A stretch of DNA of 64,000 bases from positions 8,198 to 72,197 of the forward strand of contig JAGLQO010000005.1 of NCBI GenBank assembly GCA_023136775.1, in the 5' to 3' direction. The stretch is from Candidatus Pacearchaeota archaeon. Lineage in GTDB: Archaea; Nanobdellota; Nanobdellia; Pacearchaeales; GW2011-AR1. The notes under the pieces were generated by a model, which searched no databases, was not told the origin of the DNA, and saw only the letters and a list, made by a program, of their open reading frames with translations. Position numbers and translations under genes: made by a program. Below are positions 5,331 through 61,132 of this stretch, one piece after another (within the stretch, counting starts at the first letter, position 1; each line of letters starts with the position of its first letter).

Positions 5331-5352
5331 TTTCTTCCCCGGGGTTCTTTGT

Positions 5353-7741: not shown

Positions 7742-7743
7742 TC

Positions 7744-8666: not shown

Positions 8667-8734
8667 TGTTTCCACTCCATAGAATCTACTCCAAGTACAA
8701 AACCGCAGTTTTTACGCCGTAAAAATTCTATCAT
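8663..8734 (-). CDS. leader uORF 2 (23 codons, MIEFLRRKNCGFVLGVDSMEWKQ), stop overlaps uORF1 ATG as ATGA
   Basis: Hand translation. AGGAG just upstream. Derived from duplication of the gene 5' end. Confidence 0.3.
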   Translation of the reverse strand: MIEFLRRKNCGFVLGVDSMEWKQ

Positions 8735-8822
8735 AATCTCCTTTCCCTCATATCTATATTATATTTAGAACTTATTTAAATGTTCGCCGAAAAGTTAACT
8801 TTTTATATTCGATAAGTTTTGT

Positions 8823-9659
8823 ATGGCCATGAAGGGTGATAATTCAAAAAAATTCTACAAAATTCTCTCAGATATAAAATCCGTAAAAGTTCAAGGTGCC
8901 GAAAATGTTTGCAAAGCAGGAATCCAAGCTTTTCTTTTGCAGCCGAATAAAATTTCCGCAAAAAAAATTCTGGAAACTAGAGTTACCGAGCCATTATTAC
9001 AAAATGCAATTAAGATTTTATTAAAATCAGAAAATAAAGAAAAGACAGCAAAAAAATTTATATCTAATTTGGAAAAATCCCACGACGCAATAGCCAAGAA
9101 AGGTTCAAAATTAATTAAGAATAATATGAAAATTTATTCACATTGTCATTCTTCAACCGTAATGGATATTTTAAAATATGCAAAAAAGAAAGGCAAGAAA
9201 AATTTCACAGTTTACACAACAGAAGTCGAGCCATTACTTCAAGGAAGAAAGACAGCAAAAGATTTGGCACATTCAAGAATAAAAGTTGTAATAGCATCAG
9301 ACTTTGCAGCCGATCAATTAATGGAAGACTGCGACCTATTTTTATTCGGAGCCGACGCATATACAAAGTCAAGTGCAGTGAATAAAATCGGAACTAGTAC
9401 CTTGGTCTCCCTAGCAAAATCTCATCAAATACCCTCATACTCCTGCGGGGTTTCTTTAAAATTCACAAGCAAAGTAAAAATAGAAAAGAGGTCTCCAAAA
9501 GAAGTTTGGAACGAAAAAATAAAAAATATAAAAGTAGAAAATCCAGCATTCGACAAAACAAAAATAGATAGACTTACAGGAGTAATCTCGGAATTTGGAA
9601 TCCTAACTCCAAAACAATTCGTAAAAAAAGCAAAGCAAAATCTAAAGACTTTAAATTAG
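8823..9659 (+). CDS. eIF-2B alpha/beta/delta family protein (aIF-2B subunit or ribose-1,5-bisphosphate isomerase-like)
   Basis: LFGADAYTKSSAVNKIGT motif and overall family pattern. Confidence 0.6.
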   Translation: MAMKGDNSKKFYKILSDIKSVKVQGAENVCKAGIQAFLLQPNKISAKKILETRVTEPLLQNAIKILLKSENKEKTAKKFISNLEKSHDAIAKKGSKLIKNNMKIYSHCHSSTVMDILKYAKKKGKKNFTVYTTEVEPLLQGRKTAKDLAHSRIKVVIASDFAADQLMEDCDLFLFGADAYTKSSAVNKIGTSTLVSLAKSHQIPSYSCGVSLKFTSKVKIEKRSPKEVWNEKIKNIKVENPAFDKTKIDRLTGVISEFGILTPKQFVKKAKQNLKTLN

Positions 9660-9753
9660 TGGCATATTATCCAATTACATAAGGCATTTTAGAATAATTA
9701 TTTATGACGATTTATTTGAGAACTTTTATAAACAATAAATTCATTTACAATGT

Positions 9754-30079: not shown

Positions 30080-30180
30080 AATCCGTGAATGGGCAAGCCC
30101 ATCCGTGCAAATCCGTGAGCTATTAAAATAACCAAAAACTCCCAAAGCAAAAAATCCGTGTAATCCGCGAGCAAAAAATT
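30080..30180 (+). repeat. R2 module (AATCCGTGAA-hairpin tgggcaagccca-TCCGTGCAAATCCGTGAGC ... AATCCGCGAGCAAAA)
   Basis: Near-identical to 59048-59150. Confidence 0.65.
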
Positions 30181-32648: not shown

Positions 32649-33692
32649 ATGACAAGAGAATTAACAATAAAAGATGAAGTGACCGATTTTTTACTTTATA
32701 ATTCACCAGATGGGAAAATTAAAGTAGATGTATTTTTGCACAATGAAGATGTTTGGCTTAATCAGAAGAATATGTCTGAACTTTTTGGAGTGGGTATCCC
32801 CGCAATTTCCAAGCATTTAGAAAATATATATACAGAGCGAGAACTGAATAAGGATTCAACTATTTCCATTTTGGAAATAGTTCAAAGGGAGGGGTTGAGA
32901 GATGTAAGGAGAGAACAGTTATTCTATAATCTTGACGCTATAATCTCAGTGGGATATCGTGTCAATTCTTCAAAGGCAACTCAATTCAGGATATGGTCAA
33001 CCAAGATTTTAAAAGAATATATTATCAAAGGATTTGCTCTTGATGATGAGCGACTAAAAAACGGAAAATATTTCGGCAAAGATTATTTTAAAGAACTTCT
33101 TGAGAGAGTTAGGTCAATTAGGGCAAGCGAAAGAAGGATTTATCAACAGATTACTGATATTTTTGCAGAATGCAGTATTGACTACGATAAGGATTCAAAT
33201 ACAACAAAGGAGTTTTATTCTACAGTTCAGAATAAATTCCATTACGCAATATCGGGACAAACAGCAGCAGAAATAATTTACAACAAAGCGGATTCTAATA
33301 AAAGGAGTATGGGGCTAGTTGCCTAGAAGAATTCCCCGGAAGGCAAAGTATTAAAATCAGATACAATAGTCGCCAAAAATTATCTTTCTGAAAATAAAAT
33401 TAAAAGATTAGAAAGAGTAATTTTTAGCTTCTTTGACTATCTTGAAAATTTAATTGAGAATAGGACAACTATGAAAATGAAAGATCTATCAGAAAGTGTA
33501 AATAAATTTTTAGATTTTAATGAATATAAAATATTGGAAAATAAAGGAGAGATATCCTTTAATGATGCAAAAACAAAAGCCTTCATAGAATATGATTTAT
33601 TTAACAAGACTCAAAAGTTTACTTCTGATTTTGACAAGCTAATAAAAGAACAAAACTTAATTCAATCTTCACACTTAAGAAACGATTAGTCA
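32649..33692 (+). pseudogene. RhuM-family virulence-associated protein interrupted by a single in-frame TAG (33324-33326) at a conserved Trp position
   Basis: The two ORFs 32649-33326 and 33471-33689 are in the same frame with no other stop. Sequence across the stop reads MGLVA*KNSPEGKVLKSD where RhuM homologues have a Trp (recalled). Confidence 0.55.
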
Positions 33693-33832
33693 AGTTTGTT
33701 CCAAACTTGTTAATATCTGGTTCGCCTCCAGCGAACACTTGTCCATTCAATCGCGAAAATTCTTTTCGCTTCAACATCCCATCACCCCATCGCCCAAACA
33801 ACTCCTCACTCCCAAAATCATTGCCCCCCCCC

Positions 33833-33925
33833 AATTCGTGAGAAGTCCTGAGTTAATCCGTGGATAAAATTGTTTTTCTTCCCCTGCTTTAAATCCACTG
33901 AATCCTTATAATCCGCGAGCAAAAT
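33833..33925 (+). repeat. R2 module, degenerate copy
   Basis: aattcgtgag...taatccgtgg...aaatccactgaatccttataatccgcgagcaaaa. Confidence 0.5.
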
Positions 33926-45797: not shown

Positions 45798-46104
45798 TTT
45801 AAATTTAAATTTAATCAAGGAAATGATTGAAAGAATTGAAGTAGATTTAAATAAATCTCTAGAAGATAAAACTGTTTGGGATGCCACTCTTATGAGGTTT
45901 CAAGTTATGGGAGAAAATATTGACAAACTACCAAGAGAAGTTCTTAAAAAACATAATGAAATAAATTGGAGAAAATATTACGCTTTTAGAAATTCAATAA
46001 GTCACACTTATAATGATATTCTAATAGAAGTTATTGCCGATTTAATTAGCGAATTACCAGTTTTAAAAAGAGCAATTGTAAAAATTAAGAGAGAGATAAA
46101 ATGA
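45784..46104 (+). CDS. HepT/DUF86-like HEPN toxin
   Basis: FRNSISHTY (R-x4-6-H HEPN motif). Overlaps the upstream NTase gene. Confidence 0.55.
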   Translation: MPKYDLNLNLIKEMIERIEVDLNKSLEDKTVWDATLMRFQVMGENIDKLPREVLKKHNEINWRKYYAFRNSISHTYNDILIEVIADLISELPVLKRAIVKIKREIK

Positions 46105-46162
46105 AATATAAAAAAGCACAGCAAACAAGAGGTTTAATAATAATTAAGACGGAGTATATACT

Positions 46163-46540
46163 ATGAAAATAGAAATCTCAGATTGGATAAAGCAAGCACA
46201 AGTAGATTTAGGTACGGCAAGATATAATCTCCAAGGAAAAATTTATTACGCAAGTGCTTTTTTTTCACAACAATCGGTAGAAAAAGCTCTAAAAGCATAT
46301 TATATTCAGGAAAAAAATACTATAAAGAAAACTCATAGTGTGAGCTCTCTAGCTAAAGAACTTAAGCTTCCAAAAGAACTTTTATCTAAAATAATAGAAC
46401 TTGAAGAAATACATAGAACTGCAAGATATCCAGGCATAAGTCAAAAAATTCCCTCAGAAGAAATAGAGGAAGAAGATGCTATAAATTTTTGTAATATTGC
46501 ACAGGAGGTCTTAAAATGGATAGAAATCAAAGTGAAGTAA
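46163..46540 (+). CDS. HEPN domain protein
   Basis: QQSVEKALKAYYIQ...KTHSVSSL...HRTARYPG. Confidence 0.6.
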   Translation: MKIEISDWIKQAQVDLGTARYNLQGKIYYASAFFSQQSVEKALKAYYIQEKNTIKKTHSVSSLAKELKLPKELLSKIIELEEIHRTARYPGISQKIPSEEIEEEDAINFCNIAQEVLKWIEIKVK

Positions 46541-46836
46541 TAAAGTTAATTAAAAACTTTAAAAATAAAATAAAAAATATTAAATTAGATAAAGTAATAT
46601 TATTTGGTTCATACTCAAAAGGGACACAAAAAAGAGGAAGCGATATTGATTTATTAGTTATTTCAAATGATTTTGAAAATATTAAATCATTCAAACGAGC
46701 AAACGATTTATATCTAAATTGGGATATAGACATAGACATAGATTTTATTTGCCTAACAAATGAAGAATTAAGAATTAAGAAAAATCAAATTGGCATAGTT
46801 AGTGAAGCACTAAAAACAGGAGTGGTTATAAAATGA
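46516..46836 (+). CDS. minimal nucleotidyltransferase (MNT)
   Basis: LFGSYSKGTQKRGSDIDLLVIS. C-terminal SEALKTGVVIK identical to the MNT at 40881. Confidence 0.65.
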   Translation: MDRNQSEVIKLIKNFKNKIKNIKLDKVILFGSYSKGTQKRGSDIDLLVISNDFENIKSFKRANDLYLNWDIDIDIDFICLTNEELRIKKNQIGIVSEALKTGVVIK

Positions 46837-47324
46837 AATATAAAAAAGCACAACAAACAATGAGTATGCCATTTGGTATGATATTCGCAATTTTTCTAAT
46901 TATAGTTTTTGTAGTTTTTGCATTTATGGCGGTCGGTGGATTTTTAGATATTGGGAAAAGTGCAGATGTTGGAATGTTCTATGACGAATTACAAGAAGAA
47001 GTAAATGACGCTATGCGTGGACAATCAAGTGAATCCACTTTTAGAATAAATTTACCAAAAAAGATTAAGCAAGTTTGTTTTGCTAATCTGTCAGCAACAA
47101 TTACAAACCCAGGTTCAGAGTACGATGCAATTAGAAATTATGAAGTTTATGAAGCCAATACATTTTTGCTTCCACCAGAATTTGCGTCAAATATGCAATG
47201 GAAAATGATTGACCATATTGATGTAGCAAAAATAACAGCTACAAAAAATCCCTATTGTGTAAATGTCAAAGACGACCTAAAAATAAAGAAGAGTTTTTAT
47301 GATAGAAAAGTTACAATAGCATAG
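46833..47324 (+). CDS. type IV pilin-like protein (class III signal, KKA|QQ)
   Basis: MKYKKA|QQTMSMPFGMIFAIFLIIVFVVFAF. Confidence 0.5.
   Translation: MKYKKAQQTMSMPFGMIFAIFLIIVFVVFAFMAVGGFLDIGKSADVGMFYDELQEEVNDAMRGQSSESTFRINLPKKIKQVCFANLSATITNPGSEYDAIRNYEVYEANTFLLPPEFASNMQWKMIDHIDVAKITATKNPYCVNVKDDLKIKKSFYDRKVTIA
47216..47324 (+). repeat. direct repeat copy 1 (3' end of pilin gene 46833-47324)
   Basis: About 90% identical to 47981-48090. Confidence 0.7.
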
Positions 47325-47361
47325 GAGATTAATTTTTATAAATTAGGAAGGGAACAATTTT

Positions 47362-47502
47362 GCTCTCAGGACTTCTAGAGATTGTTTGGATTAAGACAGG
47401 GGCAGGAAATTGAGATATAAAAAGACAATTAACATGAATATTAGATATTATAATTAAGCATATTTGCATTGAATCTTCTAAATCTATTAAAGTCCTGAGA
47501 GC
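47362..47502. mobile_element. MITE-like element bounded by 12-bp inverted repeats gctctcaggact / agtcctgagagc
   Basis: IRs at 47362-47373 and 47491-47502. The same 12-mer recurs at 56397 and as agtcctgag at 33847, both at other insertion junctions. Confidence 0.35.
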
Positions 47503-47556
47503 TGTTTGTCTTGAGGAATTAGTTAATTATTTAAATTCCAATTTATTAAATAATAT

Positions 47557-47757
47557 ATGGATTTTAATATAATAATTGAAAAAGGAGAAGATGGGTATTT
47601 ATTATCTGAAGTAATTGAGCTTCCTGGTTGTAGAACTCAAGCTAAAGATATGAATGAACTTCTTAAAAGAACAAAAGAGGTTATTACTCTTTATTTGCAA
47701 GTAGAGGAAATGTCAACAAGAAACAGTTTTTTAGGAGTACAAAAAATAGCAGTTTAA
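47557..47757 (+). CDS. hicB: HicB-family antitoxin
   Basis: EDGYLLSEVIELPGCRTQAKDMNELLKRTKEVI. Confidence 0.65.
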   Translation: MDFNIIIEKGEDGYLLSEVIELPGCRTQAKDMNELLKRTKEVITLYLQVEEMSTRNSFLGVQKIAV

Positions 47758-47758
47758 T

Positions 47759-47986
47759 ATGCAAAAATTACCTCAGTTAACTGCCAATCAATTTATCAAA
47801 ATTTTATTTAAATTAGGTTTCAAAGCTATAAGGCAATCTGGAAGTCATGTATTCTTAAGGCATGAAGATGGTAGAACGACAGTAATCCCAAATCATCCTG
47901 GAGAGAAATTGGATAGGGGACTATTAAATAAAATATTAAAAAAGGATGTACAAATTTCTAGAGATGAACTTTTAGAATTAATTTAG
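47759..47986 (+). CDS. hicA: HicA-family mRNA interferase toxin
   Basis: GFKAIRQSGSHVFLRHEDGRTTVIPNHPGEKLDRGLL. Confidence 0.65.
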   Translation: MQKLPQLTANQFIKILFKLGFKAIRQSGSHVFLRHEDGRTTVIPNHPGEKLDRGLLNKILKKDVQISRDELLELI

Positions 47987-48090
47987 ATATAGCAAAAATA
48001 ACAGCTACAAAAAATCCCTATTGTGTAAATGTTAAAGACGACCTAAAAATAAAGAAGGGTTTTCATAATAGAAAAGTTACAATAGAATAA
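47981..48090 (+). repeat. direct repeat copy 2 (orphan duplicate of the pilin gene 3' end, including a stop)
   Basis: atttagatatagcaaaaataacagctacaaaaaatccctattgtgtaaatgttaaagacgacctaaaaataaagaag... Confidence 0.7.
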
Positions 48091-50441: not shown

Positions 50442-50468
50442 TTTATTTTATAAATTCCAAGACAATTT

Positions 50469-50583
50469 TAGCTCACGGATTTATAGCCGTATTATCATTA
50501 ATTTATATAATTGCTTTGGAAAGTTTGGTTATTTTTTTAGCTCACGGATCCACACGGATGTCTTCGACATTCACGGATTTTTT
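50469..50583 (-). repeat. R2 modules, inverse orientation (ttagctcacggatccacacggatgtcttcgacattcacggattt)
   Basis: Reverse complement is aaatccgtgaa-tgtcgaagaca-tccgtgtggatccgtgagctaa. Confidence 0.6.
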
Positions 50584-50973
50584 TAGCTCATTATTATATA
50601 TTTTACGCTTAACCTCAGGCTGTTTTCCATAATTTAAAAGTAATCCCACTTCTTTATCCGTTGAAGTTAAATAATTTAGTAATTGATTTATATTTTGGTC
50701 CAAAAGTTCCCTTATAGCTTTTATCTCAATTATTATTACATCTTCTATAATAAAATCGGCAATATAATCACCGATGATATTCCCCTCATAATAAACTTTT
50801 ATAGGATATTGATTTTCATATTTTAAATCCATTTTGTTAAATTCAATTATCATAGCTTTCTCATATACTTTTTCTAAAAATCCATAACCAAGAGTATTGT
50901 AAACCTTATAAAATATCTTTATTACTTTATCAGTAATTTCCTCATGTTTCATATTTTCTATCATTTTATTCAC
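50542..50973 (-). CDS. GxxExxY family protein (PD-(D/E)xK-like)
   Basis: GYGFLEKVYEKA contains G-x-x-E-x-x-Y. About 140 aa as is typical. Confidence 0.55.
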   Translation of the reverse strand: MNKMIENMKHEEITDKVIKIFYKVYNTLGYGFLEKVYEKAMIIEFNKMDLKYENQYPIKVYYEGNIIGDYIADFIIEDVIIIEIKAIRELLDQNINQLLNYLTSTDKEVGLLLNYGKQPEVKRKIYNNELKKSVNVEDIRVDP

Positions 50974-51004
50974 TCAAGTTTTGCCTTGGAAGTTTAGTTG
51001 TATT

Positions 51005-51232
51005 TATTGCTCACGGATTTGCACAGATACTCATCGAGTATTCACGGATTTCTGTTTTTGAGAGTGTTTTCTCATTTTTGAATATGTTTTTAAGCCAGTG
51101 CCTTGAATCCGTGAACGCGATAGCGTCCGTGTAAATCCGTGAGCCATTTTGCATTGATTATATTTTTCCATATTTTTAATCTATCTGTCCCCTGTCTTGA
51201 ATCCCATAAATCCCCAGAATCCGCGAGCCAAT
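51005..51232. repeat. R2 modules: inverse partial (51005-51052) and direct full copy (51100-51232, hairpin cgc-gata-gcg)
   Basis: ttgctcacggattt...ttcacggattt; then cttgaatccgtgaacgcgatagcgtccgtgtaaatccgtgagcca...cttgaatcc...atccgcgagccaa. Confidence 0.6.
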
Positions 51233-51894: not shown

Positions 51895-54288
51895 ATGAAA
51901 AAAATATTTAGAAAAGCTATAACAGTTTTAGGAAGTGCTGCTTTAATTGGTGCTACTGTAGGTGCGGCTGCTGCTGCTGCTTACCCTGCTCAATTTACAG
52001 CAAGTAACACAGTTATCGTTTACGGATCCGACTCTGGAGCCGCTGATAACATTGCTACTACAGCCCTAAATGCTGATTTATTATCTTTAGCTGCTGGTTC
52101 TACAACTACAACAACTGTTGAAGGTGGAGAAGTTTTTTCTTTAGGTAAAGATTCTGACGAGTTTGAATTTGGTTACAATTTATCTAGTGTTTTCACAAGC
52201 TTAGATGATGGTGAAATGGAAAGTTTCTTAGCTGATGGAGAATATGACGATGGAGTTATTGATTCTGAATTTTCTCAAGAGATTACTTTAGGTACTCAGG
52301 CATTAAGTTTATTCGCTGATACTGATTACGACGACGATAAGACTCCAACAATTGGATTCCATTTCGATGATACTGAAGTTTTATCTTACGAGATGACTTT
52401 GGATGATTCTGATGAAGTTTATGTAAACATGATAGATACTGAAATCCCATTAATGGGAAGAGAGTATTATGTTCTGGATGCAACAGCTGACGAGGTAACT
52501 CTATTGGATTCTGCTGAAAAGGTAGTTGTTACTGAAGGAGAAACAATAACTGTTGATGGTAAAACAATTTCTATATCTGTTGCTGCTGAAACATATGTAA
52601 GGTTTGTAGTTAATGGAGAAATGACTGATAAGTTACACGATTCTGGTACTGATTACGACTTGTATCAAGAATTAGATGATGGTTCTTATATAGTAGTATC
52701 TTCAAATGATTACAATGCTAAAGATAGTGGAATTAGTAGTGCTGAAATTTCTATTGGTAAAGGTAAGTTAACTTTATCTAATGATGGTGGAGAAGTTGAA
52801 ATAAACGATGAAACCGTTACTGGATTAACATCTTACGTATATTCTACTGGAACTACTCCAGTTAATGCTGTAGGCACAGAAGTAATCAAGTCTATTAAAT
52901 TGACTTGGACTACTGATGATGAAGAATTTTTAGTTGAAGGAGGAGCTATGGTTATGCCAGGCTTTGAAACAATCAAGGTTCTATTTGGTGGAATGAACTT
53001 TCCAGAAGACTCTGAAAAGATATCAATTGACAATGGAGAAACTGTTACATTAAACATGGAAAATTTCGATGTTGATTTAATGTATGCTACTACTGAAGCA
53101 AATGGTGTTCAAGGTGACGATGGTAATTTATTACACATTGATGCAACTCCGAGTTCCACAAAAACATATTTCCTAAAAGATGGAGATAGATTCTTGGCTA
53201 CTGATTTAGATGAAACTTTAAGTGAGGTTGAACAACTTTACTATGAAGTTACTACATTGAGGAATGATTCTAACGGATTTGACTTAGTGCTAAATGATTT
53301 AACAGATGCTGATAAAGACATACCATTTGATGATGATGAAGCTGACGAAACTGATACCTCTCGAGGTGACGTAGAGGTTAAGCTAAATTTAGTTTATGAA
53401 GATGGTGTTAATGTTACTGATGCTGATGCCGCATTAATTGATGCAGCAGGTTTATCTACCGCTCTATTGACTAGTTATCCTAGTGATAACTCTACATTAG
53501 TAGAGATTGCAAAGGTTACTGTTACTCAAGACGATAGTATTGATTTACATTTCGACAAGGTAGTTTCTGATACTGGTATGATTGTAGAGATCCCTGTAGC
53601 TGCTGATGTAGCAGATAACGACGATCTTTTAATCTTCTACGAAGCTAAAGATGATGGTGATTTAGAAACAACATTTTCATCTGCTACTGCTGATATCTAT
53701 GCCGATTTAGATTGGGATACTTCTGATGAATATGTATATGCAAATGAGAATTCTACTGCTATTACTTTCAAGGAAGAATCTGATAACAATTACATAGGTT
53801 ATGTTGAATCTGATTTAACATCTATGGTTAGTTATGATACAGACGCACACTCTTACGAAATAACATATTTCGGAGAAGAGGTTGTTGCTGACGTTTCAAT
53901 TGCATCTGCTGATGCTGTACTTTCTACTTCTACAGAATCTGGAAACTTAATTGTTTTAGATACTGATGCTGATAAGCTCGTTGGTAAAAACTTGATTGTT
54001 GTTGGTGGTTCTGCTATCAACCGTGTTGCTGCTGATTTACTTAGTTTAAATTACCCATCTTATGGTGCTGATTTCACTGAGAAGACTGGTATTGCTGACG
54101 GACAAGCTCTAATTGAAGTTTTCCCTTACAGTGGGAATACTGCTATATTAGTTGCTGGTTACACGGCTGCTGACACTGCAAAGGCTACAACTTACTTACT
54201 TCACGAATCCGAAGATTTCGATTTGGTTGAAGGAGCTAAGTTAAAAGTTACATCTGCTACTGAAGCTACTGTTGTTACTACTGCTTAA
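51895..54288 (+). CDS. S-layer-like acidic, Thr/Asp-rich secreted protein
   Basis: Signal peptide ...GAAAAAA|YPAQ. 797 aa with no Cys. GGAGG SD 8 nt upstream. Strong hairpin terminator downstream. Confidence 0.5.
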   Translation: MKKIFRKAITVLGSAALIGATVGAAAAAAYPAQFTASNTVIVYGSDSGAADNIATTALNADLLSLAAGSTTTTTVEGGEVFSLGKDSDEFEFGYNLSSVFTSLDDGEMESFLADGEYDDGVIDSEFSQEITLGTQALSLFADTDYDDDKTPTIGFHFDDTEVLSYEMTLDDSDEVYVNMIDTEIPLMGREYYVLDATADEVTLLDSAEKVVVTEGETITVDGKTISISVAAETYVRFVVNGEMTDKLHDSGTDYDLYQELDDGSYIVVSSNDYNAKDSGISSAEISIGKGKLTLSNDGGEVEINDETVTGLTSYVYSTGTTPVNAVGTEVIKSIKLTWTTDDEEFLVEGGAMVMPGFETIKVLFGGMNFPEDSEKISIDNGETVTLNMENFDVDLMYATTEANGVQGDDGNLLHIDATPSSTKTYFLKDGDRFLATDLDETLSEVEQLYYEVTTLRNDSNGFDLVLNDLTDADKDIPFDDDEADETDTSRGDVEVKLNLVYEDGVNVTDADAALIDAAGLSTALLTSYPSDNSTLVEIAKVTVTQDDSIDLHFDKVVSDTGMIVEIPVAADVADNDDLLIFYEAKDDGDLETTFSSATADIYADLDWDTSDEYVYANENSTAITFKEESDNNYIGYVESDLTSMVSYDTDAHSYEITYFGEEVVADVSIASADAVLSTSTESGNLIVLDTDADKLVGKNLIVVGGSAINRVAADLLSLNYPSYGADFTEKTGIADGQALIEVFPYSGNTAILVAGYTAADTAKATTYLLHESEDFDLVEGAKLKVTSATEATVVTTA

Positions 54289-54650
54289 ATCTTAAGTTAA
54301 AAACAAATTTTTTATTTTTTTATTTTTACTTTTGATTCGCCCTTCGGGGCGAATCAATATCTATTCTTGATTAATTTCGAGAAGGATTTTCCTTTCTTTT
54401 GCTTATGTCGAGAAACTAAATTTTTATCTAAACTCCAAGGCAATTTTAGCCACGGATTACTCAAGACTTTAACGGATTCAAGACAAAAGCAGAAAGACAA
54501 ATTGGCTCACGGATTACACGGACGTCTTCGACGTTCACAGATTCAAGACAATAACTTGGATAACAATTTTTATTTAATCTACCAGCTAGTACCTTAATCC
54601 GTGAATACCGAAGGTATCCGTGAAATCCGTGAGCAAATTGTATTCCTGCC
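54088..54650 (+). repeat. direct repeat copy 1 (S-layer gene 3' end, terminator and downstream, carrying an extra inverse R2 module)
   Basis: Matches 56044-56510. Downstream 200 bp near-identical, coding part diverged. Confidence 0.7.
54334..54355 (+). terminator. hairpin gattcgccc-ttcg-gggcgaatc (9-bp perfect stem) after T-rich run
   Basis: Seen directly, 46 nt after the S-layer gene stop. Duplicated at 56282. Confidence 0.5.
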
Positions 54651-54671
54651 TTGAAGTAGTCCATAATTATT

Positions 54672-55973
54672 CTAACCCCCTTTTACAATTTTCCAAGACC
54701 CTTCCTTCCTTCCCCCAACACGTTTCAAATAGCCATCTTTCTTTAAGTTATCAAGATGATATTTAACCCCATCTGCCGAAATATTGAGAACTTTAGCCAA
54801 CTCATTTCTCGTAATTTTAGAATTATTTAGGACTAATGAAAGAATCTTTTGGGTAGTCTTTTGGGTAGGAGCTGGGAAGTAGTTCTTACGCCTGAATGTT
54901 GTGATAAATATTTCTGCAACTTCTTTAAAATTAGCTGTTGGTTCTTCCGATAAAATTAAACTTATACCTCTTCCCCATTTTTCAACAAAATGTACATCAT
55001 GAAATAGATTTGCAATTATTTCATTTCTTCTTTTAGAAACCTTTTCCTTTCTAATTTGTTTAATTGTAAGTCCTCCATACAAACTTCCCGGATTTCTAAT
55101 TTCTAATCTATCTTTGAAAATAGCTATATTAACAGAATCATCGTCGTAATAATTTCTATGACAAAAAGCATTAATGATCGCCTCTCTAAAGGCATCTTTA
55201 TCTATTTCAGGGATATCAACCCTATACATTCCCTCAATTTTCATACCTATATGAATATTTTTCAAAATATATTCTTCTGCTTTTTCAATTAATTCAAATA
55301 AATCCCCTTCAAATTCTTGTCGATCAATAATCATTGATGTTTCAGTGGTTCCAAATACAGCACACCTTAACTTTGCATTCAAAAATCTTTTTTGGGGATT
55401 TTCCCCAAAGAGAATAATCGCAGCGTTAAGTAACTTCTTATTTTTTACTAGTCCTAATTTATTAAGAGAACTTTCGACAGATTCATATTCTTTACCGGAT
55501 TTTTTCAAAAACCACTTCAATCTCTTAATACTTATATCTTCTAACGTTGCATCTTCACAAATTTCTGTATCCCATCTTAATTTATCCTTATTCTTTTCTA
55601 AAATTATTTTTTCAAGTTCTTTGGCAGAAATCAATTTATCCTCGTCGGCAACCCGCATATAAGCCCGACCATTTGCATAATATGGAATATTGCCTCCCTG
55701 AAATTCTACCAAAATACATTTCCTCCCCTCTACCTCTTCTTCACGAATTTTTGGAAAAATCTTTGGCTCGATATTAGAAGAAATTTTTTGAGAAATATCT
55801 CTCAAAGTTTTTTCATTGATACTCTGTCCGATAACTTTACCATCAGAATTAATCCCAAAATAAATTTCTCCTTTTTGATGTTTGTTTAAAATACTCGAAA
55901 TTGAAATTATAGCCTCCTTTAATTCAGATGTAGATTTTTTGAATTCCAGCGTTTCGCTTTCTTTTTTATCCAT
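54672..55973 (-). CDS. AlbA_2 (divergent AAA/Schlafen-like DNA-binding) + HATPase_c_4 + C-terminal wHTH protein
   Basis: N-terminal ETLEFKKS...EIYFGINSDGKVIG. Middle AINAFCHRNYYDD. C-terminal wHTH ITRNELAKVLNISADGVKYHLDNLKKDGYLKR. Confidence 0.55.
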   Translation of the reverse strand: MDKKESETLEFKKSTSELKEAIISISSILNKHQKGEIYFGINSDGKVIGQSINEKTLRDISQKISSNIEPKIFPKIREEEVEGRKCILVEFQGGNIPYYANGRAYMRVADEDKLISAKELEKIILEKNKDKLRWDTEICEDATLEDISIKRLKWFLKKSGKEYESVESSLNKLGLVKNKKLLNAAIILFGENPQKRFLNAKLRCAVFGTTETSMIIDRQEFEGDLFELIEKAEEYILKNIHIGMKIEGMYRVDIPEIDKDAFREAIINAFCHRNYYDDDSVNIAIFKDRLEIRNPGSLYGGLTIKQIRKEKVSKRRNEIIANLFHDVHFVEKWGRGISLILSEEPTANFKEVAEIFITTFRRKNYFPAPTQKTTQKILSLVLNNSKITRNELAKVLNISADGVKYHLDNLKKDGYLKRVGGRKEGSWKIVKGG

Positions 55974-56041
55974 ATAATCGCCAAGTATCCTAATCTTTTA
56001 AATCTATTTTATGCAATGTAGCGAAGCTTTTACTTCTACCA

Positions 56042-56236
56042 TTGGTGTTGCTGACGGAGAATTCTCGAATCCAATCTTTCGATAGATCTGGAAAGACTGC
56101 TCTATTAGTTGCTGGTTACAGTGCAGCCGATACAACTAAAGCCGCTACTTATTTACTAAACGAAGACGTTGATACAACTGTCGGAGTTAAGGTAAAAGGT
56201 ACATCTGCTACTGAAGCTACTGTTGTAACTGCTTAG
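56042..56236 (+). pseudogene. orphan C-terminal fragment of an S-layer-like gene (second copy of the direct repeat)
   Basis: TALLVAGYSAADTTKAATYLLNED...GTSATEATVVTA parallels the C-terminus of 51895-54288. No upstream gene body. Confidence 0.55.
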
Positions 56237-56281
56237 ATCTTAAGTTAAAAAACAAATTTTTATTTTTTTATTTTTACTTTT

Positions 56282-56303
56282 GATTCGCCCTTCGGGGCGA
56301 ATC
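56282..56303 (+). terminator. second copy of gattcgcccttcggggcgaatc hairpin
   Basis: Seen directly. Confidence 0.45.
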
Positions 56304-56479
56304 AATATCTATTCTTGATTAATTTCGAGAAGAATTTTATTTTCTTTTGCCTATGTCGAGAGACTAAGTTTTTATCTAAATTCCTAAAACAAATTAGCTC
56401 TCAGGACTTTTGGGGATTTGAAGGATTCAAGGCAATAAATTGAATAATAATTTTTATTTAATCTACTAGCTAGTGTCTT

Positions 56480-56506
56480 AAATCCGTGAGAATCCGTGAG
56501 CAATTT
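56480..56506 (+). repeat. R2 core dimer aaatccgtgagaatccgtgagcaattt
   Basis: Seen directly. Confidence 0.5.
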
Positions 56507-56561
56507 CCCCTCCCTTGTCCCATATTTCAAAATTAGTATATTCCGACTAATTCATCCACGT

Positions 56562-56616
56562 TTGTTACACAAAATCGTAACATTTAAGTAGTATATGTTA
56601 CATTAAAATGTAACAT
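56562..56616. promoter_or_regulatory. operator-like palindromes tgttaca-N7-gtaaca and atgttacat-taaa-atgtaacat overlapping the start codon
   Basis: Perfect 9-bp inverted repeat with 4-bp spacer at 56595-56616. The last three bases are the ATG of the ATPase gene. Confidence 0.4.
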
Positions 56617-57907
56617 GGAAATTGGAAAATTAGTTGAATGGAATCCCTGGTGGGAAAATAAAAATTTACTAACCAATCTAACAGGTAAGCCCAGACCAGC
56701 ATACAATATACTAGTTAATTCTATTAAAATAAAAGAAATAACAATTATAACAGGCGTTAGAAGAGCAGGAAAAAGTACACTGATGTATCAAATGATAGAA
56801 AATTTGTTTGCTAAGAATATTGATCCAAAACAAATATTATTTGTTAATCTAGAAGACAAAACATTGTCTAAAGATTCTCTGGAAGATATTTATTTGACTT
56901 ACAGAAAAGATATTAATCCAGATAAACGAGCATACATTTTCCTTGACGAAATTCATAAAAGAGAAGGATGGGAAAGTTGGGTAAGGAAAAAATATGATCT
57001 TAAAACAAATGATAAATTTATTATTTCTGGATCATGTTCTTATTTGTTAAAGAAGGAATATTCAACATTATTGACTGGCAGAAATCTTACCTTTGAAGTA
57101 TTTCCCTCAAGCTTTGATGAATTTTTATTATTTAAAAAAGTAATTATTAACAAAAAAGATATAAAAAAAGGCATAATTTTGGAAAAAACAAAAAATTCTA
57201 TTCTAAAAAATCTTAATGAATATTTGAATATAGGAGGATTTCCAGAAATAGAGTTCAAACAAAAAGATTATCAGATGAAAATATTGAAACAGTATTTTGA
57301 TGATATTTTATTTAAAGATATAATAGATAGATTCAATTTGAATAGCCAGAAAACTGAAGACTTGGCATTATTTTTTATAACTAACGTTACAAGTTTAGTC
57401 TCCTTAAGAAATATAAGAAATTCGTTAAATTTATCCTATGATACCATTAAAGAATATATGTCACATTTTAAAGATGCCTTTTTGTTTTTTACCCTTGATT
57501 ATTTTTCATATTCTTTAAAGGAACAAAAGACAATGGCGTCTAAAGTATATTGTGTGGACAGTGGTTTAAGAAATGCAGTTTCATTTAAATTCTCTCGAGA
57601 CTTGGGAAAATTAGCAGAGAATTTAGTTTTTGTAGAATTGAAAAGAAGAGAAAATGAATTTTATTATTGGAAAACTCCAAAAGAAGAAGTCGATTTCGTA
57701 ATTAAAGAAAAAAACAATTCTTTGACTGCTATAAATGTCTCGTATACGGACGAAATTGATGATAGAGAAACTAGGGGACTCTTAAATTTTAATAAACAAT
57801 TTGAAAAATGTAAAAAATTGATTTTATTAACGAAGGATTTAGAAAAAAAAGAAAAGGGAATTTTATTTATTCCCTTATGGAAATGGTTAATAATAACTGA
57901 TAAATAA
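56615..57907 (+). CDS. AAA+ ATPase of the AAA_14/DUF4143 family
   Basis: Walker A GVRRAGKST, Walker B IFLDEIH. Family-typical N-terminus WNPWW. Confidence 0.6.
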   Translation: MEIGKLVEWNPWWENKNLLTNLTGKPRPAYNILVNSIKIKEITIITGVRRAGKSTLMYQMIENLFAKNIDPKQILFVNLEDKTLSKDSLEDIYLTYRKDINPDKRAYIFLDEIHKREGWESWVRKKYDLKTNDKFIISGSCSYLLKKEYSTLLTGRNLTFEVFPSSFDEFLLFKKVIINKKDIKKGIILEKTKNSILKNLNEYLNIGGFPEIEFKQKDYQMKILKQYFDDILFKDIIDRFNLNSQKTEDLALFFITNVTSLVSLRNIRNSLNLSYDTIKEYMSHFKDAFLFFTLDYFSYSLKEQKTMASKVYCVDSGLRNAVSFKFSRDLGKLAENLVFVELKRRENEFYYWKTPKEEVDFVIKEKNNSLTAINVSYTDEIDDRETRGLLNFNKQFEKCKKLILLTKDLEKKEKGILFIPLWKWLIITDK

Positions 57908-58131: not shown

Positions 58132-58893
58132 ATGGAAAAACAAATAGTAACTAAACTAACCAAAAACTTCGAAGAACACGTAAACAAAAAAGATAACCTT
58201 GAATTTTGGTTTGCAAGAGATTTACAAGTATTACTTGGCTATACTGAATGGAGAAATTTCCTAAAAGCTATAGAAAGAGCAAAAGAATCTTGCAAATCAG
58301 CAAATCAGCAAATCAGCTATCATTTTGCTGACGCCAACAAAACGATAGCTATGCCCAAAGGAGCAACTAAGGAGATTAAGGACTATATGCTCACAAGATA
58401 TGCTTGTTATCTTATAGCACAAAATGGTGACCCAAGAAAACAAGAAATAGCATTTGCTCAAAGTTACTTCGCAATCCAAACCAGAAAACAAGAATTAATC
58501 GAAGAGCGAATCGCACTAAAAGAACGTTTTGAAACTAGAGAAAAACTAATTAAATCAGAAACCGAATTATCAAAATTAATCTATGAACGCGGAGTAGACG
58601 AGATGGGCTTTGGAAGAATAAGAAGCAAAGGAGATAATGCATTATTTGGAGGAAACGACACCAAGCAAATAAAACAAAAATTCAACATTCCTAAAAGTAG
58701 ACCTTTGGCAGATTTTTTACCAACAGTAACCATAGCGGCAAAAAATTTTGCAACAGAAATTACAAATTTTAATGTTCAAAAAGATAACTTACAGGGAGAA
58801 AATAAAATCACCGATGAACACATAAGAAATAATACAAGAATAGGAGGAGTTTTGTTAGAAGACAATATTGTACCAGAAAAATTATCCCAGTAG
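58132..58893 (+). CDS. dinD: DNA damage-inducible protein D (DinD) family
   Basis: YACYLIAQNGDPRKQEIAFAQSYFAIQTRKQE closely matches the DinD core (recalled from E. coli DinD). Confidence 0.6.
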   Translation: MEKQIVTKLTKNFEEHVNKKDNLEFWFARDLQVLLGYTEWRNFLKAIERAKESCKSANQQISYHFADANKTIAMPKGATKEIKDYMLTRYACYLIAQNGDPRKQEIAFAQSYFAIQTRKQELIEERIALKERFETREKLIKSETELSKLIYERGVDEMGFGRIRSKGDNALFGGNDTKQIKQKFNIPKSRPLADFLPTVTIAAKNFATEITNFNVQKDNLQGENKITDEHIRNNTRIGGVLLEDNIVPEKLSQ

Positions 58894-58950
58894 AAGATAT
58901 AAAAAAATTAGAAAGAAAAATCAATAGGAAAAAAAGAATTCCCATCAAAC

Positions 58951-58998
58951 AAAGAAACAAAGAAACAAAGAAACAAAGAAACAAAGAAACAAAGAAAC
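58951..58998. repeat. octanucleotide microsatellite (aaagaaac)x6
   Basis: Seen directly. Confidence 0.7.
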
Positions 58999-59047
58999 TA
59001 GAATAAAAAATACAATTACCTATAAATCTCATCCAATACTCCCAAAT

Positions 59048-59150
59048 TCATTGTCCCCAATCCGTGAATGGGCAAGCCCATCCGTGCAATCCGTGAGCAA
59101 AAATTGCCTTCCTTCCCCTTGCCTCGAATCCTCTGAATCCATCAAATCCG
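59048..59150 (+). repeat. R2 module (hairpin tgggcaagccca)
   Basis: aatccgtgaatgggcaagcccatccgtgcaatccgtgagcaaaaa...ctgaatcc...aaatccgcgagcaaaa. Confidence 0.65.
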
Positions 59151-59205
59151 CGAGCAAAACAGCTTTCCCAACAAGTTATTTAAACTAACATCTCAATATT
59201 ATTAA

Positions 59206-59766
59206 ATGAGAAAAATCAAATCCAAAAATCAAATAGAAAAAAAACAAAAAAGAAATCAATTAATTCTAGGAATAATAATGGTCTTTTTATTAGTAGGCTC
59301 AGTCGCAGGATTTTCACTTATGAGTCAAGATAACGACGATTCCTCAAAAGTAGAAGAATACGGATTAGAGTTTTATAGAGAAAACGGAGTTTGGAAAACA
59401 CTAATCGGAGAAGAGGCCTTCGCTTTTCAAAATTTACCTTCAGAAGTTTCAAACATAAAAGTAGATACAAATATAACTCTAGGGCAATATTCAAACCAGC
59501 CAGTATACTTGGTAAATCCAAATCAAGGCATACAAGAAATATCAAACAACATAGGAAAATATATCCAAAGATTTAATGAAGCTTGTCTGCAAGGACAAAA
59601 TTGTACAAAAGATGTCCCAACAAAAGACTGCTCAAGTAACATAATCATATTCGAAGCAGGTAACGAAACAAAAGTTTATTCCAAACAAAACTGCGTGTAC
59701 ATCGTCGGTGATTCGATTAAAGCAGCTGACGCATTTTTATATAAAATTCTAGGTATCACACAATGA
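59206..59766 (+). CDS. N-terminally anchored secreted protein
   Basis: Basic N-terminus then TM LILGIIMVFLLVGSVAGFSLM. Confidence 0.4.
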   Translation: MRKIKSKNQIEKKQKRNQLILGIIMVFLLVGSVAGFSLMSQDNDDSSKVEEYGLEFYRENGVWKTLIGEEAFAFQNLPSEVSNIKVDTNITLGQYSNQPVYLVNPNQGIQEISNNIGKYIQRFNEACLQGQNCTKDVPTKDCSSNIIIFEAGNETKVYSKQNCVYIVGDSIKAADAFLYKILGITQ

Positions 59767-61067: not shown

Positions 61068-61132
61068 AAATCCGTGAATGACGAAGTCATACGTGTAATC
61101 CGTGAGCAAATTGCTTTTTGTCTTGAATCCAA
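61068..61132 (+). repeat. R2 module (hairpin tgac-gaa-gtca)
   Basis: aatccgtgaatgacgaagtcatacgtgtaatccgtgagcaaattgc...cttgaatcc. Confidence 0.6.

What the first reader, a model, noticed from the sequence alone, without database searches (positions are those of the whole stretch)
54088..56510. AlbA_2/HATPase gene inserted between 350-560-bp direct repeats that duplicate the 3' end and terminator of the S-layer-like gene
Seen: 54088-54650 and 56044-56510 are direct repeats. The last ~50 codons of the S-layer-like gene are duplicated as an orphan fragment (56042-56236, diverged at protein level). The terminator hairpin and ~200 bp downstream are near-identical in both copies. Between them lies a single minus-strand gene (54672-55973). 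Copy 1 additionally carries an inverse R2 module where copy 2 has the 12-mer gctctcaggact. No integrase or transposase is present.
Basis: seen in the sequence. Interest (0 to 1): 0.55.

Follow-up and report, generated by a model that had tools for sequence, protein, structure and literature searches.

The report
Displaced S-layer gene tail beside cargo
In an uncultured DPANN archaeon, recombination gave the S-layer gene a new, divergent tail together with a defence-type gene and left the old tail behind as a dead fragment; this kind of scar is known in bacteria and marks an insertion hotspot here.

Summary
The repeat is real. Region 54072-54655 matches 56018-56520, and both copies share an identical terminator hairpin and a 76-nt perfect tract. 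Only the AlbA_2/HATPase_c_4/wHTH gene lies between them.

The window is a Ca. Pacearchaeota MAG. In 84 related loci the S-layer gene is normally followed about 130 nt later by a conserved 186-aa gene. None of these loci has a second S-layer gene or an orphan tail. Here 4.9 kb is extra: AlbA_2, the orphan, an AAA_14/DUF4143 gene (PDC-S01) and a Bro-N gene (PDC-S13).

The two copies did not arise from one simple duplication. The coding parts differ at dS about 0.55, while the adjacent UTRs differ by about 7%. The orphan carries the canonical family C-terminus (82-85% aa identity, dN/dS about 0.1, one frameshift). The last ~122 residues of the intact gene are anomalously divergent.

Best reading: an integrase-free, homology-anchored "C-terminal displacement". 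Incoming DNA carried a divergent 3' end, UTR, R2 element and AlbA_2, and pushed the resident 3' end downstream.

Similar scars flank HicAB and HEPN-MNT cassettes in this window and a MazF cassette in another Pacearchaeota MAG. This is a known kind of event in a new host and gene, of moderate to low interest.

The parts
51895..54288 (+). Intact S-layer-like gene (797 aa, PF05124 family)
   Evidence: Homologs carry PF05124. Synteny with relatives is shown.
53920..54288 (+). Anomalously divergent 3' segment of the intact gene (residues ~676-797), inferred to be the incoming allele
   Evidence: identity to the outgroups falls 12-29 points below P0002/P0003 in the overlapping 30-aa windows whose start residues run from 664 to 769; by eye the sequence departs from the family pattern after the conserved GEEVVADVSIASADAV block; no homolog exceeds 63% identity; 38-40 unique changes against 11-12 in the orphan (L003/L004 as outgroup).
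54072..54655 (+). Direct-repeat copy 1: last 72 codons, 148-nt 3' UTR, R-module block, 58-nt spacer and R2(+)
54332..54357 (.). Terminator-like G+C hairpin after a T-rich run, copy 1 (identical in copy 2)
   Evidence: I2. Relatives have a hairpin at the same place with a different sequence.
54309..54384 (+). Longest perfect identity tract between the copies (76 nt; partner 56257-56332). Inferred to be a possible substrate for deletion or pop-out of AlbA_2
54498..54640 (.). Palindromic R2(-)/spacer/R2(+) element between the S-layer UTR and the AlbA_2 3' end
   Evidence: I1; homologous to 51007-51151.
54672..55973 (-). Cargo gene 1: SLFN_AlbA_2 + HATPase_c_4 + wHTH protein (433 aa)
   Evidence: Homologs at 57-74% identity occur across archaeal and bacterial phyla in defence-type contexts. 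It is absent from 84 related S-layer loci.
55974..56017 (.). Junction between the cargo and the orphan. It holds a TATA-like ATTTAAAAG (minus strand, 55995-56003) 22-30 nt upstream of the AlbA_2 ATG. Inferred site of the illegitimate join
   Evidence: Read directly from the sequence. The promoter assignment is by eye.
56018..56236 (+). Orphan S-layer 3' fragment (~72 codons, one +1 frameshift near 56064-56069), inferred to be the displaced resident 3' end
   Evidence: It is 82-85% aa identical to canonical C-termini, with dN/dS 0.10-0.13 against L003/L004.
56018..56520 (+). Direct-repeat copy 2: orphan, UTR, R1-type module (GCTCTCAGGACT at 56397-56408), spacer and truncated R2(+)
56615..57907 (+). 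Cargo gene 2: AAA_14/DUF4143 ATPase (PADLOC candidate PDC-S01). GC is 24-26% against 33-37% in the flanks
58132..58893 (+). Cargo gene 3: Bro-N / DinD-like protein (PADLOC candidate PDC-S13)
59060..59165 (+). R2(+) module plus a partial module at the right edge of the extra 4.9 kb
59206..59766 (+). Conserved 186-aa gene. It is the normal immediate downstream neighbour of the S-layer gene
   Evidence: It is detected in 71 of 84 loci. Among 68 related loci with a measurable S-layer-to-g186 gap, the median gap is about 130 nt.
47220..48089 (+). Second scar of the same type: 104-nt direct repeats (47220-47323 / 47986-48089, 94%) that duplicate the 3' end of the 163-aa gene around a HicB/HicA cassette
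   Evidence: In most relatives g163 and g320 are adjacent.
46096..46860 (+). Third scar: 33-nt direct repeats (46096-46128 / 46828-46860, 97%) that duplicate the start of the 163-aa gene around a HEPN-MNT cassette

Best explanation
The structure is the scar of an integrase-independent, homology-anchored recombination event. It resembles homology-facilitated illegitimate recombination and can be called a 'C-terminal displacement'. It occurred at a hotspot just downstream of the S-layer gene of a Ca. Pacearchaeota archaeon.

Proposed sequence of events:
1. DNA arrived from a related lineage that carries a different S-layer allele.
2. That DNA held roughly the last 120 codons of the donor's S-layer gene, its 3' UTR and terminator, an R2 element, and the AlbA_2/HATPase_c_4/wHTH gene with its promoter.
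3. It paired with the resident S-layer gene on the left, probably at the conserved GEEVVADVSIASADAV block.
4. On the right it was joined illegitimately inside the resident gene, about 72 codons before its stop.

Consequences:
- The gene stayed intact but acquired a divergent C-terminus.
- The resident 3' end, with its own UTR and its own downstream cargo (AAA_14/DUF4143 and Bro-N), was pushed 1.95 kb downstream and has begun to decay (one frameshift).
- The near-identity of the two UTRs means either that donor and recipient shared flanks while carrying old, divergent S-layer alleles, or that the UTRs were later homogenised by gene conversion.
- The 76-nt perfect tract makes the AlbA_2 cassette deletable, or able to pop out as a circle, by ordinary homologous recombination.

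Shown by the data: the repeats, the empty site in relatives, the mosaic divergence, the canonical nature of the orphan, the aberrant tail of the intact gene, and the recurrence of such scars.

Inferred: the direction of transfer, the crossover positions, and the recombination pathway.
For: Empty site. Relatives at 64-69% S-layer identity (L003-L006), and the 68 related loci where the gap could be measured, have S-layer then g186 with a median gap of about 130 nt.

No paralogues. None of the 84 loci has a second S-layer gene or an orphan C-terminal fragment.

Hotspot. 15 of 68 related loci carry different cargo at the same spot: ParDE, VapB/MazF, HicAB in two loci, an NTase, an ABC pair, GT2 glycosyltransferases in three loci, and a radical SAM gene.

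Mosaic. There are 55 mismatches in 217 coding columns against about 10 in 148 UTR columns (Fisher p = 4e-8 on rounded counts of 52/170 vs 10/148). Between the two coding copies dS is 0.55.

The orphan is canonical. It is 82-85% aa identical to many family members, while the intact tail reaches only 59-63%. Its dN/dS against L003/L004 is 0.10-0.13, and it has one frameshift only.

Relative rate. With L003 or L004 as outgroup the intact copy has 38-40 unique changes against 11-12 in the orphan (p about 1e-4); with L005 the counts are 31 against 11 (p = 0.002).

Extent of the anomaly. The C-terminus is normally the best-conserved part of this family, yet the intact gene is anomalous over its last ~122-135 residues, a stretch longer than the orphan.

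No integrase or transposase was found.

The same geometry recurs:
- 104-nt repeats around HicAB and 33-nt repeats around HEPN-MNT in this window.
- Two orphan 3' fragments of the g1435 orthologue interleaved with a MazF pair and other genes in L040.
- 46-nt repeats bracketing the tblastn HEPN-MNT matches in L068.

Foreign cargo. The cargo has lower GC than the flanks and belongs to promiscuous defence-island families.

Known mechanism and outcome. See PMC5361080 (T6SS and Rhs sequential displacement, with HFIR proposed), PMC13626634 (icd/icdC around e14) and PMC4033161 (S-layer cassette exchange by homologous recombination).
Against: - No sister strain carrying either parental arrangement was found. 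The hairpin scan of JGI metagenomes gave only an unrelated hit, and no intact gene with the orphan's allele turned up. The direction of transfer therefore rests on parsimony.
- A donor for the divergent tail is not sampled.
- Near-identical UTRs next to coding sequence at dS 0.55 require an extra assumption: an old balanced S-layer polymorphism with homogenised flanks, or later gene conversion.
- HFIR has been demonstrated in bacteria, not in DPANN archaea.
- No microhomology can be assessed at the right junction, because the donor sequence is unknown.
Confidence: 0.55

Rival explanations
1. Campbell-type integration. A small circular DNA of about 1.9 kb carried AlbA_2 plus a captured canonical S-layer 3' end and UTR. 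It integrated by a single homologous crossover in the UTR. The orphan would then be the incoming copy, and the divergent tail would already have been resident.
For: A single crossover gives exactly this geometry of direct repeats flanking the insert. The 76-nt perfect tract in the UTR would be the crossover zone. The unit between the repeats is a minimal single-gene cassette of about 1.36 kb. The reverse reaction (pop-out) would regenerate such circles.
Against: It needs two events, because the resident gene must already have been a mosaic with an aberrant tail. The body of the gene is congruent with the orphan, not with the current tail. No circular or viral counterpart was found in IMG/VR.
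Confidence: 0.15
2. Remnant of a site-specific integrative element that targets the 3' end of the S-layer gene and carries a replacement 3' end, like e14 or phage 21 in icd. Its integrase would since have been lost.
For: The outcome is the same as icd/icdC: an intact gene with an element-borne tail and an orphan original tail at the far end (PMC13626634). The intact tail is the divergent one.
Against: No integrase was found in the window ORFs tested. The element would be only about 1.9 kb. The identical tract lies in the UTR, in the middle or right part of the repeat, and not at its left edge where an att core would sit. Repeat lengths at the sister scars vary (33, 104 and about 500-580 nt), unlike a fixed att site.
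Confidence: 0.07
3. Local origin. An old tandem duplication, or an S-layer paralogue pair, decayed. AlbA_2 then inserted between the copies, and the UTRs were kept alike by gene conversion.
For: Gene conversion between copies 1.95 kb apart could produce the high-identity block, which is bounded by a terminal coding block that is conserved even in distant relatives.
Against: None of the 84 related loci has two S-layer genes or an orphan. The non-functional copy is the conserved one (dN/dS about 0.1 to relatives, one frameshift), and the functional copy is the fast-evolving one. That is the opposite of what decay of a spare copy predicts.
Confidence: 0.08
4. The R1/R2 repeat modules, possibly together with the R2-flanked PD-(D/E)XK GxxExxY gene, belong to an undescribed cassette-insertion system that generates the duplications.
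For: R2 occurs 20 times against 0.9 expected. There are eight full modules with a hairpin at a fixed position and six different stem sequences. Modules sit at the borders of PDDEXK_3, AlbA_2, AAA_14/Bro-N and HicAB.
Against: Modules also lie between core genes without cargo (61070). The HEPN-MNT scar has none. The right junction of AlbA_2 has none. The L040 scar occurs in a genome where no R2 was found in the fetched locus. R2 is confined to this genome. Co-occurrence may only reflect permissive intergenic DNA.
Confidence: 0.08
5. Assembly artefact: a chimeric contig built from co-occurring strains.
For: The sequence is a MAG. Two independent short assemblies break inside the shared tract: L002 ends at 54402 and L009 starts at 56303.
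Against: The AlbA_2/orphan junction is not repeat-mediated. The copies differ enough to be resolved by an assembler. Two assemblies share the arrangement and differ only by tandem-repeat indels and one SNP. Contig breaks at a true two-copy repeat are expected.
Confidence: 0.03

Closest known systems
C-terminal displacement with orphan 3' fragments in Rhs/CDI loci, and sequential displacement of T6SS effector-immunity modules in Vibrio cholerae (PMC5361080 and the Jackson et al. 2009 paper cited there)
   Same: Incoming DNA brings a new 3' end of a conserved gene plus a linked downstream gene. The old 3' end and its downstream gene are shifted distally and remain as orphans. No integrase is involved. 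The proposed route is homology on one side and an illegitimate join on the other. Arrays can build up, as in L040.
   Different: Here the gene is an S-layer protein, not a toxin. The two tails are homologous alleles (62% aa identity), not unrelated toxin domains. The linked gene is on the opposite strand and is not an immunity gene. The host is a DPANN archaeon.
e14 / phage 21 integration into icd of E. coli, which leaves the icdC pseudogene (PMC13626634 and the Hill et al. 1989 paper cited there)
   Same: The intact gene carries an element-borne, slightly different 3' end. The original 3' end survives as an orphan at the far side of the insert. Recombination between the copies removes the insert and produces a chimeric gene.
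   Different: e14 is a 15-kb prophage that uses a site-specific integrase and a defined att core. Here the insert is a 1.4-kb single gene with no recombinase, and the identity profile is unlike an att site.
Replacement flexible genomic islands and S-layer cassette switching by homologous recombination (C. difficile, Haloquadratum walsbyi; PMC4033161, PMC4535781)
   Same: Deeply divergent surface-protein alleles sit in near-identical flanks. Exchange occurs by homologous recombination in the flanks.
   Different: Those exchanges are clean double crossovers that leave no orphan fragment. Here one end was illegitimate, which left a duplication and stacked cargo. The strain-level comparison that defines such islands could not be done.
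Defence-island cargo: COG2865-like AlbA_2/HATPase_c_4/HTH proteins, AAA_14-DUF4143 (PADLOC PDC-S01) and Bro-N/DinD-like proteins (PDC-S13)
   Same: The domain architectures match. Homologs sit in type I R-M, RhuM/Bro-N/RT and AbiEii neighbourhoods.
   Different: No function has been shown for the AlbA_2 protein. It gives only weak PADLOC hits (pAgo-associated or Csa3-like HTH regions), and the only solved relative is an uncharacterised protein, 3lmm.

Membership tests
Homology-anchored C-terminal displacement (Rhs / T6SS-EI type scar) | An orphan 3' fragment of the upstream conserved gene lies distal to newly acquired DNA | tested here: met
   The orphan at 56018-56236 lies distal to AlbA_2.
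Homology-anchored C-terminal displacement (Rhs / T6SS-EI type scar) | The intact gene carries a 3' end of different ancestry from its body, and the orphan matches the body's ancestry | tested here: met
   The orphan is 82% identical to P0002 and the intact tail 59%. The relative-rate test gives 40 against 12 unique changes.
Homology-anchored C-terminal displacement (Rhs / T6SS-EI type scar) | Related genomes lack the insert (empty site) and no recombinase is present | tested here: met
   for the empty site. for the absence of a recombinase.
Homology-anchored C-terminal displacement (Rhs / T6SS-EI type scar) | Donor and recipient arrangements are observable in sister strains | not testable with these tools
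   No sister strain is present in the collections searched.
Site-specific integrative element with a replacement 3' end (e14/icd type) | An integrase is encoded in the element | tested here: not met
   Only AlbA_2 lies between the repeats. No integrase domain was found in the ORFs tested.
Site-specific integrative element with a replacement 3' end (e14/icd type) | An identical att core sits at the proximal edge of both repeat copies | tested here: not met
   The left edge is the least similar part (66%). The perfect tract lies in the UTR.
Transposon or IS insertion | Short target-site duplication of fixed length, terminal inverted repeats, and a transposase | tested here: not met
   The repeats are about 500-580 nt and diverged. 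Sister scars have repeats of 33 and 104 nt. No transposase was found.
Diversity-generating retroelement (VR/TR pair) | Mismatches confined to template adenines, and a nearby reverse transcriptase | tested here: not met
   Mismatches are spread evenly over the bases (A 14, C 14, G 12, T 15). No RT is present in the locus.
Tandem S-layer paralogues followed by decay | Relatives with two S-layer genes at this locus | tested here: not met
   None of 84 loci has a second N-terminal or C-terminal S-layer hit within the fetched flanks (up to 10 kb each side).
Replacement flexible genomic island (S-layer cassette switching) | Alternative alleles in identical flanks among strains of one species | not testable with these tools
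   Only one strain, in two near-identical assemblies, is available. The mosaic divergence is consistent with this but is not a test.

The most novel reading that the evidence does not exclude
The R1/R2 modules mark the ends of an undescribed, integrase-free cassette system in Pacearchaeota. These are a genome-specific repeat family with a hairpin at a fixed position whose stem sequence varies between copies. The system might use the R2-flanked PD-(D/E)XK GxxExxY protein. It would load defence and toxin-antitoxin genes next to a conserved cell-surface gene cluster and, as a by-product, swap the S-layer anchoring tail. Surface-variant switching would then be coupled to defence-gene gain.
Probability: 0.08. 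Interest if true: 0.75.

Novelty: new member of a known kind. Interest (0 to 1): 0.36.

Why it matters
DPANN archaea have tiny genomes and few recognisable mobile-element enzymes, so it is unclear how they gain defence and toxin-antitoxin genes.

This locus, its two sister scars in the same window and the scar in L040 suggest one route. Cargo appears to be stacked at junctions of a conserved surface-gene cluster by recombination anchored in the conserved genes. The process leaves partial gene duplications as datable scars.

The locus also shows that the C-terminal domain of the S-layer protein, normally its most conserved part, can be replaced by a very divergent allele. That bears on virus or host-cell recognition in these episymbionts.

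The recombination mechanism itself is already known from bacteria.

Tried and rejected
- **DGR VR/TR pair.** Rejected: there is no adenine bias and no RT.
- **Known RNA in the repeat.** No Rfam family reaches the gathering score anywhere in the window, and there are no tRNAs.
- **More copies or strain variants of the UTR.** An exact scan of JGI metagenomes with the hairpin gave one unrelated contig.
- **GTDB scan with the single protein.** It found nothing. The profile scan gave 80 loci, all at 40% identity or less.
- **AlbA_2 in IMG/VR.** None found.
- **R2 in IMG/VR and in about 90 other DPANN loci.** None found.
- **Intact gene carrying the orphan's allele.** Only edge-truncated genes and the orphan itself were found.
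- **Solved structures.** None for the S-layer family. AlbA_2 matches only an uncharacterised protein.
- **L090.** Its 176-nt repeats around HicAB abut a run of N, so I gave them little weight.
- **R2 hairpin energies.** Each hairpin alone is not better than shuffled sequence. Only the conserved position with varying stems argues for structure.
- **Bacterial promoter/terminator scanner.** Not used, because the organism is an archaeon.

Full report
**Observation**

The repeats are real. The repeat finder, MAFFT and blastn agree on two matches. Region 54087-54436 matches 56043-56384 (81%, E 4e-88), and 54540-54604 matches 56424-56489 (88%).

At protein level the homology starts earlier, at about 56018 (frame 0, SEAFTSTIGVADGEF). 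It continues after a single +1 frameshift near 56064-56069 (frame 1, IQSFDRSGKTALLVAGY...TVVTA*). The orphan therefore holds about 72 codons and is otherwise open.

The hairpin TTGATTCGCCCTTCGGGGCGAATCAA is identical in both copies. The longest perfect tract is 76 nt (54309-54384 = 56257-56332).

Only one gene lies between the copies: 54672-55973 on the minus strand, with SLFN_AlbA_2, HATPase_c_4 and a winged HTH.

Copy 1 has a full inverse R2 module at 54506-54542. Copy 2 has GCTCTCAGGACT at 56397-56408.

**Source and reliability**

The S-layer protein is found exactly on contig DAOWHN010000006.1 of GCA_030641395.1, a Candidatus Pacearchaeota MAG. Over 22 kb that contig differs from the window by one SNP and two tandem-repeat copy-number changes. 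One is a 12-nt unit inside AlbA_2 at 54845, and the other is the AAACAAAG run at 58947.

Two short independent assemblies break inside the shared tract. L002 ends at 54402 and L009 starts at 56303. This is expected for a true two-copy repeat. The AlbA_2/orphan junction is not repeat-mediated, so I consider an assembly artefact unlikely.

**Comparison with relatives**

Four contigs with S-layer proteins at 64-69% identity (L003-L006) show the gene order 320aa-167aa-164aa-HVO_A0114(-)-S-layer-186aa-240aa-(Sm_multidrug_ex).

A profile scan of GTDB genomes added 80 Pacearchaeota and Woesearchaeota loci. Across these loci the order g1435-g163-g320-g167-(g164)-HVO-S-layer-g186-g240-(Sm)-g179 is largely conserved; the g186 gene is detected in 71 of 84 loci, usually just downstream of the S-layer gene.

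Among the 68 related loci where the distance from the S-layer stop to g186 could be measured, the median gap is about 130 nt. In the window the gap is 4.9 kb. The extra DNA holds AlbA_2, the orphan fragment, an AAA_14/DUF4143 ATPase and a Bro-N/DinD-like gene.

None of these cargo genes has a homolog at that position in any of the 84 loci. None of the 84 loci has a second S-layer gene or an orphan C-terminal fragment.

The same gap is a recurrent hotspot. Fifteen of 68 related loci carry 0.5-3.9 kb of other cargo there:
- ParDE
- VapB/MazF
- HicAB (two loci)
- a nucleotidyltransferase
- an ABC transporter pair
- GT2 glycosyltransferases (three loci)
- a radical SAM gene

**The repeat copies are a mosaic**

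Identity between the copies changes along the repeat:
- 66% over 54072-54248
- about 95% over 54249-54385
- 88% over 54386-54436

In the coding part dS is 0.55 and dN is 0.30. The adjacent non-coding 148 nt differ at about 7% (Fisher p = 4e-8). One duplication followed by uniform divergence cannot produce this pattern.

The mismatches show no adenine bias and there is no reverse transcriptase, so a DGR template/variable pair is excluded.

**Which copy is the original?**

In this protein family the C-terminal ~100 residues are the best-conserved part. For example, P0002 against P0010 reaches 72-79% there and 21-59% elsewhere.

The orphan fits this pattern. It is 82-85% identical to the C-termini of many family members, with dN/dS of 0.10-0.13 against L003/L004.

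The intact gene's tail does not fit. It is only 59-63% identical to any of 120 homologs. In a relative-rate test it carries 38-40 unique changes against 11-12 in the orphan with L003 or L004 as outgroup (p about 1e-4), and 31 against 11 with L005 (p = 0.002).

The anomaly covers roughly the last 122-135 residues. The window scan places its onset at about residue 664-679, and by eye the sequence departs from the family pattern right after the conserved block GEEVVADVSIASADAV. It is therefore longer than the 72 codons retained in the orphan. Upstream of it the gene is as close to its relatives as expected.

The body of the gene and the orphan are thus congruent with each other, and the present tail is the odd one out. 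The orphan was part of a working gene until recently.

**Mechanism proposed**

The simplest single event is a homology-anchored displacement:
1. Linear DNA came from a lineage with a different S-layer allele.
2. It carried that allele's last ~120 codons, its UTR and terminator, an R2 element, and AlbA_2 with about 44 nt of upstream sequence. That sequence includes a TATA-like ATTTAAAAG 22-30 nt before the ATG (by eye).
3. It recombined homologously in the S-layer gene on the left.
4. It was joined illegitimately at about 56017 on the right.
5. The resident tail, with its UTR and its own cargo (AAA_14 and Bro-N), was pushed downstream.

This is the outcome described as C-terminal displacement for Rhs loci and as sequential displacement for T6SS effector-immunity modules, where homology-facilitated illegitimate recombination was proposed (PMC5361080). 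It also parallels icd/icdC around the e14 prophage (PMC13626634).

The near-identical UTRs need one further assumption. Either old S-layer alleles persist in flanks that are homogenised by recombination, as reported for S-layer and O-antigen islands (PMC4033161), or the UTRs were later homogenised by gene conversion.

The direction of transfer, the crossover sites and the pathway are inferences. No sister strain or donor allele could be found.

**Recurrence**

The same window holds two smaller scars with the same geometry:
- 104-nt repeats (94%) duplicate the 3' end of the 163-aa gene around a HicB/HicA cassette (47220-47323 / 47986-48089).
- 33-nt repeats (97%) duplicate the start of that gene around a HEPN-MNT cassette (46096-46128 / 46828-46860).

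In most relatives these genes are adjacent.

Other genomes show the same thing:
- In another Pacearchaeota MAG (L040), the 3' end of the g1435 orthologue is present twice more downstream. The copies are interleaved with a MazF-type pair, small ORFs and a radical SAM gene, forming an array of orphans.
- L068 has 46-nt repeats that bracket the tblastn HEPN-MNT matches.
- L090 has 176-nt repeats around HicAB, but these abut a run of N.

The variable repeat lengths and the absence of recombinases argue against transposition or att-site integration. They favour homology-driven insertion.

**The cargo**

Homologs of AlbA_2/HATPase_c_4/wHTH at 57-74% identity occur in Pacearchaeota, Woesearchaeota, CPR bacteria, Elusimicrobia and Nitrospirae. 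Their neighbours include hsdM, RhuM/Bro-N/reverse transcriptase and AbiEii. The function of the protein is not known. PADLOC gives only weak partial hits, and the only solved relative is the uncharacterised 3lmm.

AAA_14/DUF4143 matches the PADLOC candidate PDC-S01 (E 9e-105). Both Bro-N proteins match PDC-S13.

The cargo has lower GC than the flanks: AAA_14 24-26%, PDDEXK_3 26% and AlbA_2 30-33%, against 33-37%.

**R modules**

ATCCGTGA occurs 20 times in the window against 0.9 expected. Eight full R2 modules share the form ATCCGTGAA-hairpin-CCGTG-N-ATCCGTGAGC. The hairpin sits at a fixed position and uses six different stem sequences.

The modules are specific to this genome. They lie at several cargo borders, but also between core genes. 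I therefore treat them as intergenic MITE-like repeats and rate a causal role as unlikely (0.08).

**Verdict**

The feature is a recombination scar of a known kind (displacement of a gene's 3' end with stacking of cargo). It is newly seen at an archaeal S-layer gene in a DPANN genome, at a demonstrable hotspot. Interest is moderate to low.

Noticed in passing
window 47220-47323 and 47986-48089: 104-nt direct repeats (94%) duplicate the last 34 codons of the 163-aa gene and flank a HicB/HicA cassette. The HicA stop codon abuts the second copy. The geometry is the same as in the finding.
   Followed up: partly
window 46096-46128 and 46828-46860: 33-nt direct repeats (97%) duplicate the start of the 163-aa gene, including the ATAAAATGA stop/start overlap, and flank a HEPN-MNT pair. 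An MNT-HepT pair lies just upstream. L059 and L077 have MNT-HepT at the same junction.
   Followed up: partly
window 30081-30119, 50541-50578, 51010-51049, 51107-51143, 54506-54542, 54597-54633, 59060-59097, 61070-61106: R2 module family: ATCCGTGAA, a small hairpin, CCGTG, then ATCCGTGAGC. The hairpin position is fixed while six different stem sequences keep pairing. The family is absent from about 90 other DPANN loci and from IMG/VR.
   Followed up: partly
window 47362-47373, 47491-47502 (minus strand), 56397-56408: The 12-mer GCTCTCAGGACT ('R1') occurs three times against 0.07 expected (one mismatch allowed; all three matches are exact). Each copy lies just downstream of a gene's 3' UTR at the proximal edge of cargo. 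It looks like a sequence variant of the R2 end (GCTCACGGATT).
   Followed up: partly
window 50460-51151: A PD-(D/E)XK GxxExxY gene (TIGR04256, 50542-50973, minus strand, GC 26%) is inserted in the divergent promoter region between HVO_A0114 and the S-layer gene. It is bracketed by R2 modules in inverted orientation and is absent from relatives.
   Followed up: partly
window 54845-54868 and 58947-58998: Two tandem repeats vary in copy number between this window and GCA_030641395.1. One is a 12-nt in-frame unit (TCTTTTGGGTAG, 2 vs 3 copies) in the AlbA_2 linker. The other is an AAACAAAG run downstream of Bro-N (two units fewer in the other assembly).
   Followed up: yes
L040 1500-6700: Another Pacearchaeota MAG has two orphan copies of the 3' end of the g1435 orthologue (about 2254-2360 and about 4051-4134). 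They are interleaved with a MazF-type pair, small ORFs, and radical SAM, NTase and amidohydrolase genes, all before g163.
   Followed up: partly
L090 9515-9685 and 10248-10423: 176-nt direct repeats (93%) flank a HicAB cassette in the S-layer/g186 gap of a Woesearchaeota-labelled MAG. The first copy abuts a 100-nt run of N, so the assembly is uncertain.
   Followed up: partly
window 56540-56612: The region just upstream of the AAA_14/DUF4143 gene contains paired GTTACA...TGTAAC inverted motifs that look operator-like. The gene itself has 24-26% GC, well below its surroundings.
   Followed up: no
window 41195-62535 and loci L003-L095: A gene cluster is conserved in order across Pacearchaeota and Woesearchaeota: giant protein, three or four small proteins with pilin-like N-termini, HVO_A0114, the S-layer gene, and the 186-aa, 240-aa and 179-aa genes. 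Its junctions repeatedly hold toxin-antitoxin or defence cargo.
   Followed up: partly
window 32649-33326 and 33808-33924: A RhuM-family ORF covering only the first 153 of 252 profile positions sits next to PCNA. An R-like repeat similar to 59038-59159 lies just downstream.
   Followed up: no
L011-L013, about 3700-11100: The AlbA_2 homolog at 67% identity in other Pacearchaeota MAGs is followed by an RVT_1 reverse transcriptase and a giant NosD/beta-helix protein, and is preceded by RhuM and Bro-N genes.
   Followed up: no
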